This document shows positions 18,927-48,764 of a stretch of 64,000 nucleotides of DNA, in pieces (position 1 is the first letter of the stretch; each line of letters opens with the position of its first letter). A program made the translations under genes and the position numbers. The stretch lies in the NCBI GenBank assembly GCA_963699165.1, contig OY969413.1, positions 212,310 to 276,309 on the forward strand, read 5' to 3'. Source of the DNA: Candidatus Kaiserbacteria bacterium. GTDB lineage: Bacteria; Patescibacteriota; Minisyncoccia; Phycocordibacterales; Phycocordibacteraceae. The notes beneath the pieces are model-generated. The model did no database searches, had not been told where the DNA came from, and saw nothing but the letters and a program-made list of their open reading frames with translations.

Positions 18927-18945
18927 GTTTGTGATTGTAACACGC

Positions 18946-19061
18946 CAGTCGCCTTGCACTCGAAATGAGCGCGGTATTTTTCTGCTGAAAAATCCGCTCC
19001 TCTTACGCCGTCGCGTTGCGAGACCCATTTCTCGTGCAAGGCGACTGGCGTTATACTTACA
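18946..19061. promoter_or_regulatory. ~30-bp imperfect inverted repeat (TGTAACACGCCAGTCGCCTTGCACTCGAAATG / reverse complement) bracketing the yqeY-rmuC divergent intergenic region
   Basis: Arms at ~18946-18977 and ~19026-19061, two mismatches plus one small indel. Each arm lies just upstream of one divergent start codon. Confidence 0.35.
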
Positions 19062-20194: not shown

Positions 20195-20548
20195 GTGTCC
20201 AACTCGAAGAGATCAAAGCTGAATGGAGCGTGTGTGCTTGCCGCTTTTGTGGCGGCGTGCGCGCTCGCTATTTTCTGGCCAATAAATGGTCCCGGTCCTT
20301 TGTATTCGCCGACCGAGCTCACGAACAAGCAAATTCTGGCACGGCTCAAACCGGGCAAGACGGTGACGGTCCGGTTAGAAAAGGGTCGTGTACCGTTTTG
20401 CGCTCGGTACAGGGAGACCGAGATGTCTCCCAACTCACGCGTCGGGGACTTCTATGTGCGGGTCGCGTTCTTTCCGGAAGACGCGTTTCCGGACTATGTG
20501 GACGTCCGCGAGGACGGACACGACATCCAAGCCGGGTGCCACCAGTGA
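20195..20548 (+). CDS. Hypothetical small exported/membrane-anchored protein
   Basis: GTG start preceded by AAGGAGG at -8; N-terminal hydrophobic segment. The 117-aa product looks more protein-like than the overlapping +2-frame ORF 20155..20649. Confidence 0.45.
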   Translation: MSNSKRSKLNGACVLAAFVAACALAIFWPINGPGPLYSPTELTNKQILARLKPGKTVTVRLEKGRVPFCARYRETEMSPNSRVGDFYVRVAFFPEDAFPDYVDVREDGHDIQAGCHQ

Positions 20549-20633: not shown

Positions 20634-20951
20634 ATGGAAGTGGCCGTAATCAAGACGGGCGGGAAGCAGTATGTCGTCTCCAAAGGCGATACTATTTCGA
20701 TAGAGAAGCTCCCCGCCGATTTGAAAAAAGGTGACACGGTTGTCTTTGGCGAGGTGCTCCTCGTCGACAACGGCTCGGACACGACCATCGGCGCGCCGAT
20801 TATCAAAGGCGCGGAGGTCAAGGGCACCGTTGTTCTCGCCGGGAAGGCAAAGAAAATTGAGGTGGTGAAATACAAGCCGAAGAGCCGCTACTACAAGCGC
20901 AACGGCCACCGCCAGCCGGTTCTGCAAGTGAAAATCGATTCGATTTCTTAG
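20634..20951 (+). CDS. rplU: 50S ribosomal protein L21
   Basis: MEVAVIKTGGKQYVVSKGDTISIEKL...; canonical L21. Confidence 0.92.
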   Translation: MEVAVIKTGGKQYVVSKGDTISIEKLPADLKKGDTVVFGEVLLVDNGSDTTIGAPIIKGAEVKGTVVLAGKAKKIEVVKYKPKSRYYKRNGHRQPVLQVKIDSIS

Positions 20952-20982
20952 TCATCTCAAAAACTCGAGAGCAAGACCTCAG

Positions 20983-21153
20983 AACCTGTTTCAAAAATAA
21001 CTTTCTGAAATGCCTGGCCGCTGCGAGCCGCCTGTTTCGGCTACGAAGCGCAACGGCTCGCCCTCGCCGTACCTCAGGTATGTCTCGGTCTGCGCCGGCA
21101 CTTCTCGCTCGAAACAGACGGCTCTCGCAAGGCCATTATTTTTGAAACAGGTT
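20983..21153 (+). other. ~170-nt extended nested inverted repeat (perfect 18-bp outer arms AACCTGTTTCAAAAATAA / TTATTTTTGAAACAGGTT with further inner pairing) between rplU and the DEAD-box helicase gene; candidate structured RNA or 5' leader
   Basis: Outer arms at 20983-21000 and 21136-21153. Inner arms GCGAGCCGCCTGTTTCG / CGAAACAGACGGCTCTCGC. No credible ORF. Confidence 0.45.
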
Positions 21154-21205
21154 CCGCAAGGCCTTCGTTTTCGTTTTCTCATTATTTAATTATCTATATA
21201 CATTT

Positions 21206-22564
<1,359 letters not shown>

Positions 22565-22620: not shown

Positions 22621-22856
22621 TGGGCTGACGTCTACGCCGCGACCGCGAGTTTAACCATCGCCGGGCTAAGGAATCTACCTTCTGCATCAAAGACGGCGAC
22701 TCGGTTGCTGAAGCCAACGAACAAGACTTTGTATTTCTTTTCCCCCGAAATCTCGTCGATATGTAGAGTTTGTTTTTCCCAGCCCGCCGAAGCCGGATTC
22801 GTTGGTCCGAAAAGTTCCGCCGTTGAACCGATATACATAAAAAGACCTTACCTTTC

Positions 22857-23960
22857 CTAACTTGTTGAGAAGCAATCCCAACTCGTTAGTAGGTATACAA
22901 CTTTGCAAAAAATTTGTCCAGCTACTGTACGCGTCCAGTACTTTTGGCAGTCCCCGACGGTTAATGTACACACAATATACCGCAAGGGGGACACCATGCC
23001 GAGCGACTGGTGCGGGCGTTTGGTGTTGTACCAGATCAGCCAGTCGACAAGCTTCAGATTGAAGGAATGAATATCGTCCCGCAGCAGGCCCCGATTCAGC
23101 ATGATGAAGTCCTCGGAGACGGTGCGATTGAATCGTTCGACGTGGGCATTCATCTTGGGAGTGCGGGGGCGGGTGTGAAAGTGCGTGAGCCCGAGTTCGG
23201 CACAGGCATCCTCGAAGTGTTTGGCGAACTCGCTCCCGTTGTCGGTCTGCAACTCGTCGATATCGAAGGGGCAAACCTCGATGACTCGGCGAAGGAAGTC
23301 GTCCGCGCTTCTCGACGAGTGGTTCGTATACGCGCCCGCAAAGGCGAACTTCCGCTCCACATCCACTGCCGTGAGGACGTACCGCTTCACGCCGTCGATG
23401 AAGCGGACGACGGTATCGAGCTCCATGCCGCGCTTGCCGGTGCGGCGAAGCTTGGTACGGCGTTTCTGCGGTGTTTCCGTGTGATTGCCCGTACGTGCGT
23501 GGAACGAGAGCCGGCTCTGCTGCGGGAGCAGACCGCGGTTCTTCAAATCCAGAATGACCCGCCCAACGTATGACTCCGACACGGAGTACCCTTCTTCGCG
23601 CAGGAGAACGGCAAGCTTTGCTTTCCCAAGCCGGGGATGCGCCTGTCGTTCGCGGATGATGAAATCCTCGACCTCGGGCAGAACAGTCCTCCTTCGACGC
23701 GCCTTCGGCGCAGTGCTCTTCGGGTCAAGTGCATCAATGCGGCCCTCGTGGGCTTTGAGTTCCTCCTTCCAGCGATACAAGGTGCGCTCCGAGGTGCCAA
23801 AGGCGTCGTATGCGGCCTCCGTCCCGTGCATGTCCCAGAATCCCAATATCTTCACCCGTCTGTCGACTTCCTTTGGTTTCCGCATATGCCGCAATCGTAT
23901 CGTCCTTTCCCACATGCTCAACCAGCCCTTCGTACCCCTGAAATTGCTTCTGATGCGCAT
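22857..23960 (-). CDS. IS481-family DDE transposase (copy 2); reading frame runs 60 nt into flank DNA before a stop
   Basis: Same 345-aa core as copy 1. C-terminus ...WTRT then VAGQIFCKVVYLLTSWDCFSTS from flanking sequence. Confidence 0.8.
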   Translation of the reverse strand: MRIRSNFRGTKGWLSMWERTIRLRHMRKPKEVDRRVKILGFWDMHGTEAAYDAFGTSERTLYRWKEELKAHEGRIDALDPKSTAPKARRRRTVLPEVEDFIIRERQAHPRLGKAKLAVLLREEGYSVSESYVGRVILDLKNRGLLPQQSRLSFHARTGNHTETPQKRRTKLRRTGKRGMELDTVVRFIDGVKRYVLTAVDVERKFAFAGAYTNHSSRSADDFLRRVIEVCPFDIDELQTDNGSEFAKHFEDACAELGLTHFHTRPRTPKMNAHVERFNRTVSEDFIMLNRGLLRDDIHSFNLKLVDWLIWYNTKRPHQSLGMVSPLRYIVCTLTVGDCQKYWTRTVAGQIFCKVVYLLTSWDCFSTS

Positions 23961-24004
23961 ATATCCTCGGTTATGAGGACTGCCAAATGTATCTGAACTT
24001 ATGC
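22926..24004 (-). mobile_element. IS481-family insertion sequence, copy 2 of 3, flanked by 6-bp target duplication AGCTAC
   Basis: Identical to copy 1 and copy 3 apart from the transposase codon noted on feature 61061..62104; flank repeats at 22920-22925 and 24005-24010. Confidence 0.9.
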
Positions 24005-24012
24005 AGCTACGC

Positions 24013-24944
24013 TGTACTAAGTCAACGCGTTGTTGACACTTTCTAGGTACGCCTCGAGTCTTCCGAATGGAGTTGTTCCGAGCGATTGGTGAATGCGGGT
24101 CTGGTTGTACCAGTCCACAAACGCATACAAATAGCGTCGGCGATGGGCTCGAGAGATGTGATTGGAACGTGTCTTCCCGTGCCATTCGGTCATGAGGGTT
24201 TTGATGAATCGCTCCGCTTTTCCATTGGTCCAGGGATGCTTCACTTTCGTGAACGCTTGGCTCATGCCCGTTTCCCTGCAGAGTGCCGCCACCGGATGAT
24301 CCGGTCGTCCCCGGTACTCGCTCCCGTTGTCGGAATAGATGCCGGTCACGGGGAACGGCAATACTCGCTTGCTCTCGGCGAGGAACATGGCGGCCGAATA
24401 TGCGGTCTTGTCGGGGAAGATATCGGCAAAGGCGGTACGAGAGTAGTCGTCAATGGCGACAAATAGGTATTCTCTCGGTTGCGCGGCGGCTTCTCCTCGC
24501 AGGAGCGGCAGGCGCTTGGTATCGAGATGCAGCATTTCACCCGGTATCGATTTCTCGTATCGGTTCAATCGATGGGCTTTGCGGGCGAGCTTCTCTCCCA
24601 CGCGCTTTTCGGTGCGAGCAAGCTTTTGGAACCCGTACAGGATGGTGCGATATCGGTGATTCATCGAGGAACGATTCTCGAAGACGTTCAGTCGGGCATC
24701 TTTAAGTGTCTCGTATACGGTTTCTCGGGAGACTTTGTATTCTCGGGCCAAATGGGTCGCTTGAGCTCCCATACCCCATCTGCGGAACATCTCACGCCGT
24801 TGGTACGGCAACAATTTGGTATTCTTGTGCATGCAAGAGGCGCTAACGATTAAATGGTCTGAACACCAAAATCGTACCGCGCCTTTTGCGCTTTCAATGA
24901 ACTCGTCGACGCGAAAAGTGTCAACAACCCGATACTAACGTACA
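24013..24944 (-). mobile_element. Second, distinct IS481-family insertion sequence (~932 bp) with ~30-bp terminal inverted repeats (TGTACTAAGTCAACGCGTTGTTGACACT / TGTACGTTAGTATCGGGTTGTTGACACT) and 7-bp target duplication GCTACGC
   Basis: IRs and flank repeats (24006-24012 and 24945-24951) read directly from sequence. Single copy in the window. Confidence 0.85.
24017..24832 (-). CDS. IS481-family DDE transposase (271 aa) of the second IS
   Basis: HLDTKRL...YLFVAIDDYSR, SDNGSEY, HPWTNGKAERFIKT catalytic regions; N-terminal HTH. Confidence 0.85.
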   Translation of the reverse strand: MHKNTKLLPYQRREMFRRWGMGAQATHLAREYKVSRETVYETLKDARLNVFENRSSMNHRYRTILYGFQKLARTEKRVGEKLARKAHRLNRYEKSIPGEMLHLDTKRLPLLRGEAAAQPREYLFVAIDDYSRTAFADIFPDKTAYSAAMFLAESKRVLPFPVTGIYSDNGSEYRGRPDHPVAALCRETGMSQAFTKVKHPWTNGKAERFIKTLMTEWHGKTRSNHISRAHRRRYLYAFVDWYNQTRIHQSLGTTPFGRLEAYLESVNNALT

Positions 24945-24945
24945 G

Positions 24946-25545
24946 CTACGCCTCTTTTCGATTTATCAGAGCGGCTCGGAGGGTCTCCGCATCGGAATAT
25001 TCAAGTTCGCTGCCGGTCGCAAGACCGCGGCCGAGAACGGAAATTTTGATTTTGTCGCGATAGGGAGCAAGAAGCGAACGGACGTAATCGGCCGTATGCT
25101 CGCCTTCGCTTGTCGCGCCGAGCGCGAGGACGATTTCGTTCAAATTATTTTTCACATGCTTTTCAACGGATTTCAGCAATTCCTTTTCGCGAATCGCACC
25201 TTTTCCGTTAAGAGTAAGTACGCCGCCAAGCACGAAGTAGCGGCCGCGGTAGGTGCCGGCGCGCTCAATGGCGGCGAGATCCTGGTCTTTTTCAACGAGC
25301 ATTAAAAGCGAATCTTCGCGGCGCGTATCGGAGCAATAATTGCAGAGGGGAGACATTCCATTGAAGAAACGCAAACATTCGGTGCATTGCCTGACGTCTT
25401 TGCCGAGCGATGTGATAAGCTCGGCGAGTTTGGTTCGTTCATACGCAGGAGCGGCAAGCAAGTAAAAAACAAAACGTTTGCCTTGCCGCGGGCCGATGCC
25501 CGGGAATCGCGCGAGTGCTTGTGCAAGTTCGTCGATTTTATCCAT
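24946..25545 (-). CDS. recR: Recombination protein RecR
   Basis: HhH N-terminus, C4 zinc finger (CTEC...CNYC), Toprim domain. The stop codon lies inside the IS target duplication. Confidence 0.92.
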   Translation of the reverse strand: MDKIDELAQALARFPGIGPRQGKRFVFYLLAAPAYERTKLAELITSLGKDVRQCTECLRFFNGMSPLCNYCSDTRREDSLLMLVEKDQDLAAIERAGTYRGRYFVLGGVLTLNGKGAIREKELLKSVEKHVKNNLNEIVLALGATSEGEHTADYVRSLLAPYRDKIKISVLGRGLATGSELEYSDAETLRAALINRKEA

Positions 25546-48488: not shown

Positions 48489-48640
48489 GTTGAATGTTAT
48501 GGCATGAGTATACCAAGAACGAGGGAAAATAAGTGCTCCGGGTTGGATTCGCTTCTCGCTCTGCTGAGCTCGAAACCTCCGCCCCCTCCTCGGGGGCTGC
48601 GGCCCGCGGTTCGAATCCTTCCCGTCCGTACATGAAGCAC

Positions 48641-48675
48641 AGAAAAGGTCGGATAAAAAATCCGACCTTTTCTGG
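48641..48675 (-). terminator. Rho-independent terminator downstream of tRNA-Tyr
   Basis: AAAAGGTCGGAT-loop-ATCCGACCTTTT with T-run on the minus strand. Confidence 0.6.
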
Positions 48676-48680
48676 CTTAG

Positions 48681-48764
48681 TGCGCCGGGTTGGATTCGAA
48701 CCAACGTAGGACTATGTCCGACAGGTTTACAGCCTGTTGTAATTGACCACTCTACCACCGACGC
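48681..48764 (-). tRNA. tRNA-Tyr (anticodon GTA) with long variable arm
   Basis: Manual cloverleaf on the minus strand: acceptor GCGTCGG/CCGGCGC, anticodon stem ACAGG/CCTGT with loop CTGTAAA, variable arm CGGAC-ata-GTCC, T-arm GTTGG-TTCGAAT-CCAAC, discriminator A. Confidence 0.85.

What the first reader, a model, noticed from the sequence alone, without database searches (positions are those of the whole stretch)
20983..21153. 170-nt nested inverted repeat (perfect 18-bp outer stem) between rplU and the DEAD-box helicase gene
AACCTGTTTCAAAAATAA (20983-21000) pairs perfectly with TTATTTTTGAAACAGGTT (21136-21153). Inside, GCGAGCCGCCTGTTTCG pairs with CGAAACAGACGGCTCTCGC, enclosing a ~75-nt GC-rich core. 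Nothing credible is coded here (the one six-frame ORF is antisense and Arg-rich). It could be a long 5' leader controlling the helicase, a small RNA, or an oversized terminator. DEAD-box helicase genes are often cold-regulated through long structured leaders.
Basis: seen in the sequence. Interest (0 to 1): 0.5.

Follow-up and report, generated by a model that had tools for sequence, protein, structure and literature searches.

The report
Mobile palindromic insertion beside rplU terminator
The 173-base hairpin is real, but it is a recently inserted, non-coding palindromic DNA element rather than a conserved control region of the helicase gene: five related species lack it at this site, and elements with the same 19-base ends occur at two unrelated loci elsewhere.

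Summary
Observation confirmed. A perfect 19-bp inverted repeat (20982-21000 / 21136-21154) encloses a core that is itself an imperfect palindrome. The 173 nt fold as one hairpin (z about -7 to -8 on either strand). Rfam has no match.

Interpretation mostly not supported. The host is a Minisyncoccia/Paceibacteria (CPR) MAG. Five related species keep the same YqeY-RmuC-rplU-helicase order, but their rplU-helicase spacer is only 56-101 nt and lacks the hairpin. The insertion is bounded exactly by the repeat. It lies at the 5' foot of the small rplU terminator and upstream of a conserved AT-rich block abutting the helicase start.

Scans with the arm found two more elements with the same ends. One is in another Patescibacteria genome, where it rewrites the last codons of msrB and is absent from three relatives. 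The other is on an unassigned metagenome contig. The three cores share no sequence similarity, yet each is a hairpin.

No target-site duplication, parent IS or second copy in the 64-kb window was found.

Best reading: a MITE-like selfish palindromic insertion, probably co-transcribed with rplU. Together with the flanking stem and U-run it may now serve as the rplU terminator. Modest interest.

The parts
20982..21000 (.). Left terminal inverted repeat GAACCTGTTTCAAAAATAA (19 bp)
   Evidence: (I1, 100% complementary). The same 19-mer ends the elements in L082 and L146.
21136..21154 (.). Right terminal inverted repeat TTATTTTTGAAACAGGTTC (19 bp)
21001..21014 (.). 14-nt stretch (CTTTCTGAAATGCC) with no partner on the other side of the palindrome. 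The L082 copy has a longer unpaired stretch next to the equivalent arm.
   Evidence: Folds.
21015..21135 (.). GC-rich imperfectly palindromic core. Inner arms 21025-21039 / 21110-21124 again contain CCTGTTTC/GAAACAG. Apical stem 21068-21073 / 21077-21082, loop 21074-21076.
   Evidence: I2; core alone, z -3.1 on + and -5.4 on -; 85% self-complementarity; no similarity to the cores of L082 or L146.
20966..20981 (+). Native left flank (CGAGAGCAAGACCTCA), conserved in relatives as CGAGRRC.GAC.... It pairs with the right flank around the element in the + strand RNA.
   Evidence: Alignments A2 and A5; fold.
21155..21179 (+). Native right flank. It is a remnant of the rplU intrinsic terminator (CGCAAGGCCTTCG, where relatives have AAAGGC-loop-GCCTTT) followed by a U-run (TTTT at 21174-21177). 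The 9-mer CGCAAGGCC is also present inside the element at 21126-21134.
   Evidence: Terminator-like sites in relatives; direct repeat D1; composite fold.
20634..20951 (+). rplU (ribosomal protein L21), the upstream gene. The element lies 30 nt after its stop codon.
   Evidence: Pfam Ribosomal_L21p on the identical product.
21180..21235 (+). AT-rich block and helicase start region, nearly invariant at nucleotide level among species. TATATA/TATACA at 21195-21202 lies 4-6 nt before the ATG at 21206. This is the putative helicase promoter with a very short or absent leader (inferred).
   Evidence: Alignments A2 and A5. The sigma-70 consensus scan found nothing, so the promoter assignment is inference only.
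21206..22564 (+). DEAD-box (RhlE-like) helicase gene, the downstream neighbour
   Evidence: Pfam DEAD/Helicase_C.

Best explanation
The 173-bp segment 20982-21154 is a non-coding, wholly palindromic DNA element that inserted recently into the short rplU-helicase spacer of this Minisyncoccia (CPR) species. It landed between ...GACCTCA and CGCAAGGCC..., at the 5' foot of the rplU intrinsic terminator and upstream of the conserved helicase start region. It belongs to a rare family defined by nearly identical 19-bp terminal inverted repeats (GAACCTGTTTCAAAAATAA) around cores that are unrelated in sequence but always fold into one long hairpin. It behaves like a MITE or other non-autonomous selfish element. 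The termini would be the part recognised by a trans-acting mobilising protein (inferred), and the palindromic body is the cargo. At this site it is most likely transcribed as the 3' end of the rplU mRNA (inferred). There it forms a very stable stem-loop that, stacked on the flanking native stem and followed by the native U-run, can act as the rplU terminator or 3' stabiliser. It is not a conserved regulatory leader of the helicase. Shown: the structure, the insertion relative to five related species, the other two family members, and a second empty site. Inferred: the mobilising mechanism, transcription, and the terminator role.
For: Structure. Insertion: relatives with helicases 82-91% identical keep the YqeY-RmuC-rplU-helicase order, with rplU-helicase spacers of 72 nt (L004), 56 nt (L008), 100 nt (L009), 73 nt (L171-173) and 101 nt (L175), against 254 nt here. 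Alignments A2 and A5 and the raw sequences place the extra DNA exactly at the repeat boundaries. Family: among 152 loci hit by exact 18/19-mer scans of 185,579 species genomes and JGI metagenomes, only L082:6281-6475 (195 bp, arms 19/19 and 18/19) and L146:312-451 (140 bp, arms 16/19 and 19/19) have a second arm. Both fold as single hairpins (cores alone z -3.5 to -6.7). Second empty site: L082's relatives L164, L166 and L167 (MFS protein 82-88% identical) have an msrB-MFS spacer of 35-38 nt or an overlap, against 175 nt in L082. There the element replaces the MsrB C-terminus EEK* with PVSKINTP*. Close relatives of the L146 locus also lack it. No coding capacity and no Rfam family. The same genome stretch carries another unrelated IR-bounded insertion (18937-19056) and two IS481-like elements that relatives lack, so this lineage has been accumulating insertions.
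Against: No target-site duplication is visible in the window (flanks TCA | CGC), although the arms are perfect and so the insertion looks recent. L082 is ambiguous, and L146 has TA/TA, which equally extends the repeat. Only one copy occurs in the 64-kb window at up to 3 mismatches; the rest of the 993-kb genome could not be searched. No full-length IS with these termini was found among the scanned loci, and the neighbouring IS481-like elements have unrelated ends. The three cores share no similarity (p > 0.16), unlike most MITE families. Only three loci were found in very large collections, although the scans required an exact 18/19-mer. Transcription and terminator function are untested.
Confidence: 0.62

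Rival explanations
1. The composite hairpin (native flanking stem plus inserted palindrome plus U-run) is now the functional rplU terminator or 3'-end stabiliser. It insulates the helicase from rplU read-through. This is an exapted role, compatible with a mobile origin.
For: Relatives have a small intrinsic terminator AAAGGC-loop-GCCTTT plus a T-run at the homologous position. In the window that small hairpin has lost its loop (AAGGCCTT). However, 20966-21173 folds into one hairpin of -93.8 kcal/mol that ends directly before UUUU.
Against: The terminator scan of the window region reports no site here. The basal stem contains G-U pairs and bulges. A stem of about 200 nt is far from canonical terminators. 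No transcript data are available.
Confidence: 0.3
2. The element carries, or is, a small structured RNA gene expressed from the strand antisense to rplU and the helicase. The hairpin would then be under RNA-level selection.
For: In all three members one strand folds clearly better: window - (-96.1 against -81.9), L082 + (-92.6 against -69.2), L146 - (-72.7 against -49.2). In each case that strand is antisense to the flanking genes. All four arm mismatches in L082 and L146 are G-U on that strand.
Against: On a strand-neutral palindrome alignment, the G-T against A-C counts are 1:2, 5:1 and 0:4, none significant. The preferred strand was chosen after the fact. No promoter-like site was found on either strand. 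There is no Rfam match. The cores are not conserved.
Confidence: 0.1
3. It is a cis-regulatory 5' leader (for example cold-responsive) of the DEAD-box helicase mRNA.
For: It lies 52 nt upstream of the helicase ATG on the same strand and is very stable.
Against: It is absent from five related species whose helicase and start region are conserved. The conserved AT-rich block with TATATA/TATACA 4-6 nt before the ATG lies downstream of the element. Elements with the same ends sit next to unrelated genes (msrB/MFS, a GAF-domain protein).
Confidence: 0.05
4. It is a folded-DNA recombination site of the integron attC type (conserved ends, free but palindromic centre), or a substrate of another site-specific or single-strand recombinase, rather than a transposase-driven MITE.
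For: The architecture of conserved termini plus unrelated, always palindromic cores, the insertion without duplication, and the one-sided unpaired stretch recall the attC logic (established knowledge of integron attC sites).
Against: The attC R'' (RYYYAAC) and R' (GTTRRRY) boxes are not present at the ends on either strand (read directly from the sequence). The element is solitary, not in a cassette array. No integrase was seen among the neighbouring genes examined. Conservation over 19 bp is far more than attC sites show.
Confidence: 0.08
5. It is a spontaneous local inverted duplication (replication template switch) with no mobility.
For: The whole element is 85% self-complementary. A 12-mer of the core (AAGCGCAACGGC) also occurs in rplU, and a 9-mer (CGCAAGGCC) occurs just outside the element.
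Against: The same 19-bp termini bound elements at two unrelated loci in other organisms. The short local matches are not significant in 64 kb (E = 0.5).
Confidence: 0.04

Closest known systems
Bacterial MITEs that fold as hairpins (for example Neisseria Correia elements, enterobacterial ERIC/IRU, pneumococcal RUP, Bacillus bcr1); comparison from general knowledge
   Same: Size of 140-195 bp, no coding capacity, terminal inverted repeats, whole-length hairpin potential, location in short intergenic spacers next to terminators and gene ends, and presence/absence polymorphism between related genomes.
   Different: No target-site duplication at the best-resolved junction. No multi-copy evidence. 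No cognate IS found. Family members share only the 19-bp ends, whereas members of known MITE families also share their interiors.
Rickettsia palindromic elements (RPE); comparison from general knowledge
   Same: Palindromic selfish DNA in a reduced-genome bacterium with no known transposase. It can invade the end of a protein-coding gene and alter the protein: the L082 copy replaces the MsrB C-terminus.
   Different: RPE families are defined by conserved whole-element consensus sequences and many copies per genome. Here the cores are unrelated and only single copies were seen.
REPINs / REP doublets mobilised by RAYT (HUH) transposases; comparison from general knowledge
   Same: Hairpin-forming inverted doublets with conserved arms, no target duplication, and frequent association with terminators.
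   Different: REP arms are themselves short palindromes with a conserved GTAG-type 5' tetranucleotide and occur in tens to hundreds of copies alongside a RAYT gene. None of this was seen or could be tested here.
Integron attC sites; comparison from general knowledge
   Same: Conserved ends with a structurally conserved but sequence-free palindromic centre, and recombination without duplication.
   Different: The R-box consensus is absent, there is no cassette array or nearby integrase, and the arms are conserved over 19 bp.

Membership tests
MITE (miniature inverted-repeat transposable element) | Small size (under about 500 bp) and no coding capacity | tested here: met
   The element is 173 bp. 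Its only ORFs are spurious.
MITE | Terminal inverted repeats | tested here: met
   A perfect 19-bp repeat, with the same termini in L082 and L146.
MITE | Target-site duplication flanking the repeats | tested here: not met
   The window flanks are TCA | CGC. The empty sites of five relatives show a clean insertion without duplication. L082 is ambiguous. L146 has TA/TA, which also extends the repeat.
MITE | Presence/absence polymorphism (empty sites) showing insertion | tested here: met
   Window against L004, L008, L009, L171-173 and L175. L082 against L164, L166 and L167.
MITE | Multiple copies within a genome | tested here: inconclusive
   One copy in the 64-kb window at up to 3 mismatches.
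MITE | An autonomous IS with matching termini | tested here: not met
   No second arm within 9 kb of any of the 152 exact-arm hits other than the three short elements. The candidate pairs flank ordinary genes. The neighbouring IS481-like elements have different ends. ISfinder could not be consulted.
Conserved cis-regulatory leader / riboswitch-like RNA | Conservation of sequence or structure at the orthologous position in related genomes, with covariation | tested here: not met
   Absent from five related species. No Rfam family, even at E <= 10.
Intrinsic (Rho-independent) terminator | A GC-rich stem directly followed by a U-run at the end of a gene | tested here: inconclusive
   The composite hairpin 20966-21173 is followed by UUUU, but it is not reported by the consensus scan. 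Relatives have a canonical small terminator at this position.
Integron attC site | R'' RYYYAAC and R' GTTRRRY boxes at the ends; location in a cassette array | tested here: not met
   Neither motif occurs in the terminal 30 nt on either strand (read). The element is solitary.
Retron msr-msd | a1/a2 repeats around a long hairpin, with a reverse transcriptase gene immediately downstream | tested here: not met
   The repeats and hairpin are present, but the downstream genes are a DEAD-box helicase, an MFS transporter or a GAF-domain protein, not a reverse transcriptase.

The most novel reading that the evidence does not exclude
The three elements may represent an undescribed class of hairpin-shaped mobile DNA that crosses phylum boundaries. 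Only a 19-bp terminal helix would be specified, and the body could be any palindrome. The elements would insert without target duplication into short spacers next to terminators and gene ends, and move as a folded single strand (or via an RNA) using a recombinase that is not a classical DDE transposase.
Probability: 0.15. Interest if true: 0.6.

Novelty: new variant of a known kind. Interest (0 to 1): 0.3.

Why it matters
The finding removes a tempting false positive. A very stable 170-nt structure in front of a DEAD-box helicase gene is not an evolved cold-sensing leader. It also shows that the ~1-Mb genome of a CPR bacterium, usually thought poor in repeats, is being invaded by small palindromic insertions. 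There are two unrelated ones plus two IS481-like elements within 6 kb that relatives lack. Such insertions can rebuild terminators and rewrite gene ends, as with MsrB in L082. If the shared-ends, free-core architecture holds in more members, it would point to a mobilisation mechanism that reads only a terminal helix. Finding the responsible enzyme would then be worthwhile.

Tried and rejected
- **Rfam.** Gathering threshold on the whole window and E <= 10 on the three elements gave nothing relevant.
- **Other copies in the window.** The arm at up to 3 mismatches and blastn-short of the whole element found none.
- **Collection scans with the arm.** The genome contigs 18-mer scan gave 110 loci and the metagenome contigs 19-mer scan gave 42. 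All but L082 and L146 are single chance hits in AT-rich DNA. The viral-contig scan gave 0. Hits in other CPR genomes (L034, L060) have no second arm.
- **Parent IS.** I looked for a second arm within 9 kb. The pairs in L045, L059 and L067 flank ordinary genes. The IS481-like neighbours have unrelated ends.
- **Coding potential.** phmmer of the antisense ORF gave only a chance eukaryotic zinc-finger repeat hit.
- **RNA-level strand selection.** The G-T against A-C counts are not significant, although the minimum free energies differ between strands.
- **Similarity between the cores of the three members.** None was found.
- **Insertion into a hairpin loop as a common target.** This looked plausible for a reconstructed window site. 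However, the relatives' terminator lies just 3' of the insertion point, and the L082 empty sites show no hairpin there.
- **Literature.** Searches for the arm sequence and for MITEs or palindromic elements in CPR found nothing relevant.
- **Resemblance of the arm to IS6- or ISL3-type ends.** This rests on my memory only and was not testable, so I do not rely on it.

Full report
**1. The observation**

The region between rplU (20634-20951, +) and the DEAD-box helicase gene (21206-22564, +) contains a perfect 19-bp inverted repeat. GAACCTGTTTCAAAAATAA at 20982-21000 pairs with its complement at 21136-21154, with 135 nt between the arms. A second, inner pair of arms lies at 21025-21039 / 21110-21124 (15 nt, 93% complementary).

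- In 100 dinucleotide-preserving shuffles of the window, none gave two matches to the arm.
- The 173 nt fold as one long hairpin on either strand: + strand -81.9 kcal/mol (z -7.4), - strand -96.1 kcal/mol (z -8.1).
- The core without the arms is still a hairpin. The element is 85% self-complementary over its whole length.
- The apex loop is at 21074-21076. A 14-nt stretch (21001-21014) has no partner.
- Two other assemblies of the same species carry an identical copy, so this is not an assembly artefact.
- The antisense ORF is not a gene. Its only hit among 1.84 billion representative proteins is a chance match to a eukaryotic RanBP2-type zinc-finger repeat protein.
- Rfam has nothing here, either at gathering thresholds or at E <= 10.

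**2. Organism and synteny**

The helicase is annotated in its source as coming from a Minisyncoccia bacterium MAG, on a 993-kb contig. Its relatives at 74-91% identity, where a source names them, are labelled Paceibacterota, Parcubacteria or Kaiserbacteria, or generically 'Patescibacteria group bacterium' or 'bacterium'.

I fetched the loci of five related species:

| Locus | rplU-helicase spacer |
|---|---|
| L004 | 72 nt |
| L008 | 56 nt |
| L009 | 100 nt |
| L171-173 | 73 nt |
| L175 | 101 nt |
| window | 254 nt |

All five keep rplU directly upstream of the helicase. Where the contig reaches far enough, YqeY and RmuC lie upstream as in the window.

The alignments and raw sequences show two conserved blocks.

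- **Block 1.** CGAGRRC.GAC... is followed by a small intrinsic terminator, AAAGGC-loop-GCCTTT plus a T-run.
- **Block 2.** An AT-rich block abuts the start codon (TTTATTTA.CTA..ATA...ATGCAA.TAGG...TGGAATCATCA). It is almost invariant at the nucleotide level.

The window has both blocks. The extra DNA is exactly the repeat-bounded 173 nt, sitting between ...GACCTCA and CGCAAGGCC.... That position is at the 5' foot of the terminator and upstream of the start-proximal block. The structure is therefore an insertion specific to this species, not a conserved leader or sRNA gene.

**3. Other members of the family**

I scanned 185,579 species-representative genomes with the 18-mer and the JGI metagenome contigs with the 19-mer. 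This gave 110 and 42 loci. Almost all are lone chance matches in AT-rich DNA with no second arm. IMG/VR gave none. Two hits are genuine.

- **L082:6281-6475** is in a Patescibacteria MAG. It is 195 bp with arms GAACCTGTTTCAAAAATAA / TTATTTTTGAAACGGGTTC.
- **L146:312-451** is on a 1.3-kb metagenome contig. It is 140 bp with arms GAACCTATCTCAAAAACAA / TTATTTTTGAAACAGGTTC.

Both fold as single long hairpins, and their cores alone do too (z -3.5 to -6.7). Yet the three cores show no sequence similarity in either orientation (p > 0.16).

In L082 the element lies between msrB and an MFS transporter gene. Three relatives (MFS protein 82-88% identical) have a 35-38-nt spacer or overlapping genes there, against 175 nt in L082. 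The arm now supplies the last codons and the stop of msrB, so EEK* became PVSKINTP*. This is a second, independent empty site.

The closest relatives of the L146 locus also lack the element, but synteny differs, so no junction can be defined. The named relatives of the L146 GAF-domain protein are not CPR bacteria. The family may therefore extend beyond Patescibacteria.

**4. What kind of element**

The element is small and non-coding, has terminal inverted repeats, shows presence/absence between close relatives, and recurs at unrelated sites. These features fit a non-autonomous mobile element of the MITE or palindromic-repeat type. Several defining MITE features are not met or could not be shown.

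- **No target-site duplication in the window.** The flanks are TCA | CGC, even though the arms are perfect. L082 is ambiguous by a few bases. The TA/TA in L146 can equally be read as extending the repeat.
- **Only one copy in the 64-kb window**. The host genome is not among the scanned representatives, so its copy number is unknown.
- **No full-length IS with these ends** among the hits. The two IS481-like elements inserted between the helicase and recR (22.8-24.9 kb) have unrelated ends.
- **Unrelated cores.** Conserved ends around unrelated but always palindromic cores is unusual for MITE families. It recalls the logic of integron attC sites, but the attC R boxes are absent and the element is solitary.
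- **Not a retron.** No reverse transcriptase gene follows any copy.

I therefore describe it as working like a MITE, not as a proven member of that class.

**5. RNA-level selection**

In each member one strand folds much better, and that strand is antisense to the neighbouring genes. All four arm mismatches are G-U on that strand.

On a strand-neutral palindrome alignment, however, the wobble counts are 1:2, 5:1 and 0:4, none of them significant. The preferred strand was also chosen after the fact. No promoter-like site was found. I keep an antisense RNA as a low-probability rival.

**6. Likely consequence at this locus**

With its flanks, 20966-21173 folds into one composite hairpin of -93.8 kcal/mol. 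In it the native sequences CGAGAGCAAGACC and GGCCTTCGTTTTCG pair around the element, and UUUU follows.

The small terminator present in relatives appears to have lost its loop in the window (AAGGCCTT). The insertion-bearing hairpin may therefore now terminate or stabilise the rplU transcript. This is inference.

The helicase probably starts from the conserved AT-rich block. TATATA/TATACA lies 4-6 nt before the ATG, which suggests a very short leader or none. The hairpin would then lie outside the helicase mRNA. This is also inferred, and the consensus promoter scan did not call a site.

**7. Verdict**

The regulatory-leader and sRNA readings are not supported. The 'oversized terminator' reading is partly right, but as a by-product of an insertion.

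The element is a lineage-specific, repeat-bounded palindromic insertion. It belongs to a rare and, as far as I could find, undescribed family with conserved 19-bp ends (searches found no literature). Interest is modest. The open point worth following is how an element specified only by its terminal helix is mobilised.

Noticed in passing
window 18937-19056: A second, unrelated repeat-bounded insertion of about 120 bp (31-nt arms GTAACACGCCAGTCGCCTTGCACTCGAAATG, 87% complementary) fills the divergent YqeY/RmuC spacer. That spacer is about 137 nt here against about 20 nt in relatives L008 and L009.
   Followed up: partly
window 22800-24950: Two IS481-like elements with rve integrase ORFs (22857-24185 and 24017-24832, both on the - strand). 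One has 32-nt ends at 24011-24042 / 24915-24946. They lie between the helicase and recR, whereas in L009 recR follows the helicase directly. The fragmented assembly GCA_049279115.1 breaks here.
   Followed up: partly
window 20195-20548: A 117-aa ORF with no Pfam match lies between RmuC and rplU. It is absent from L008 and L009, where RmuC and rplU are 42-43 nt apart. A 95-aa ORF occupies the same place in L172.
   Followed up: no
window 21180-21235 and homologous positions in L004, L008, L009, L171, L175: The nucleotide sequence around the helicase start (TTTATTTA.CTA..ATA...ATGCAA.TAGG...TGGAATCATCA) is almost invariant among species whose helicases are only about 82% identical. This suggests a conserved promoter, translation-initiation signal or regulatory signal, possibly a leaderless mRNA.
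   Followed up: partly
L009:2405-2440 and L175:1110-1142: Two relatives each carry a different small hairpin (about 30-40 nt) inserted just upstream of the conserved CGAGRRC block in the same rplU-helicase spacer. The spacer is therefore a hot spot for hairpin gain and loss.
   Followed up: no
window 12473-12747 and 48608-48702: Inverted partial copies of tRNA 3' halves lie next to the tRNA genes at 12421-12492 and 48681-48764. They may be scars of integrated elements.
   Followed up: no
window 21126-21134 / 21155-21163 and 20895-20906 / 21046-21057: The 9-mer CGCAAGGCC occurs both inside the element, just before the right arm, and immediately after the element. A 12-mer of the core (AAGCGCAACGGC) also occurs in the rplU coding sequence. 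Neither repeat is explained.
   Followed up: partly
L082:5056-6847 and L146:539-1039: Both other family members lie next to methionine-sulfoxide reductase genes: msrB and msrA in L082, and a GAF-type free Met-R-sulfoxide reductase in L146. This may be coincidence.
   Followed up: no
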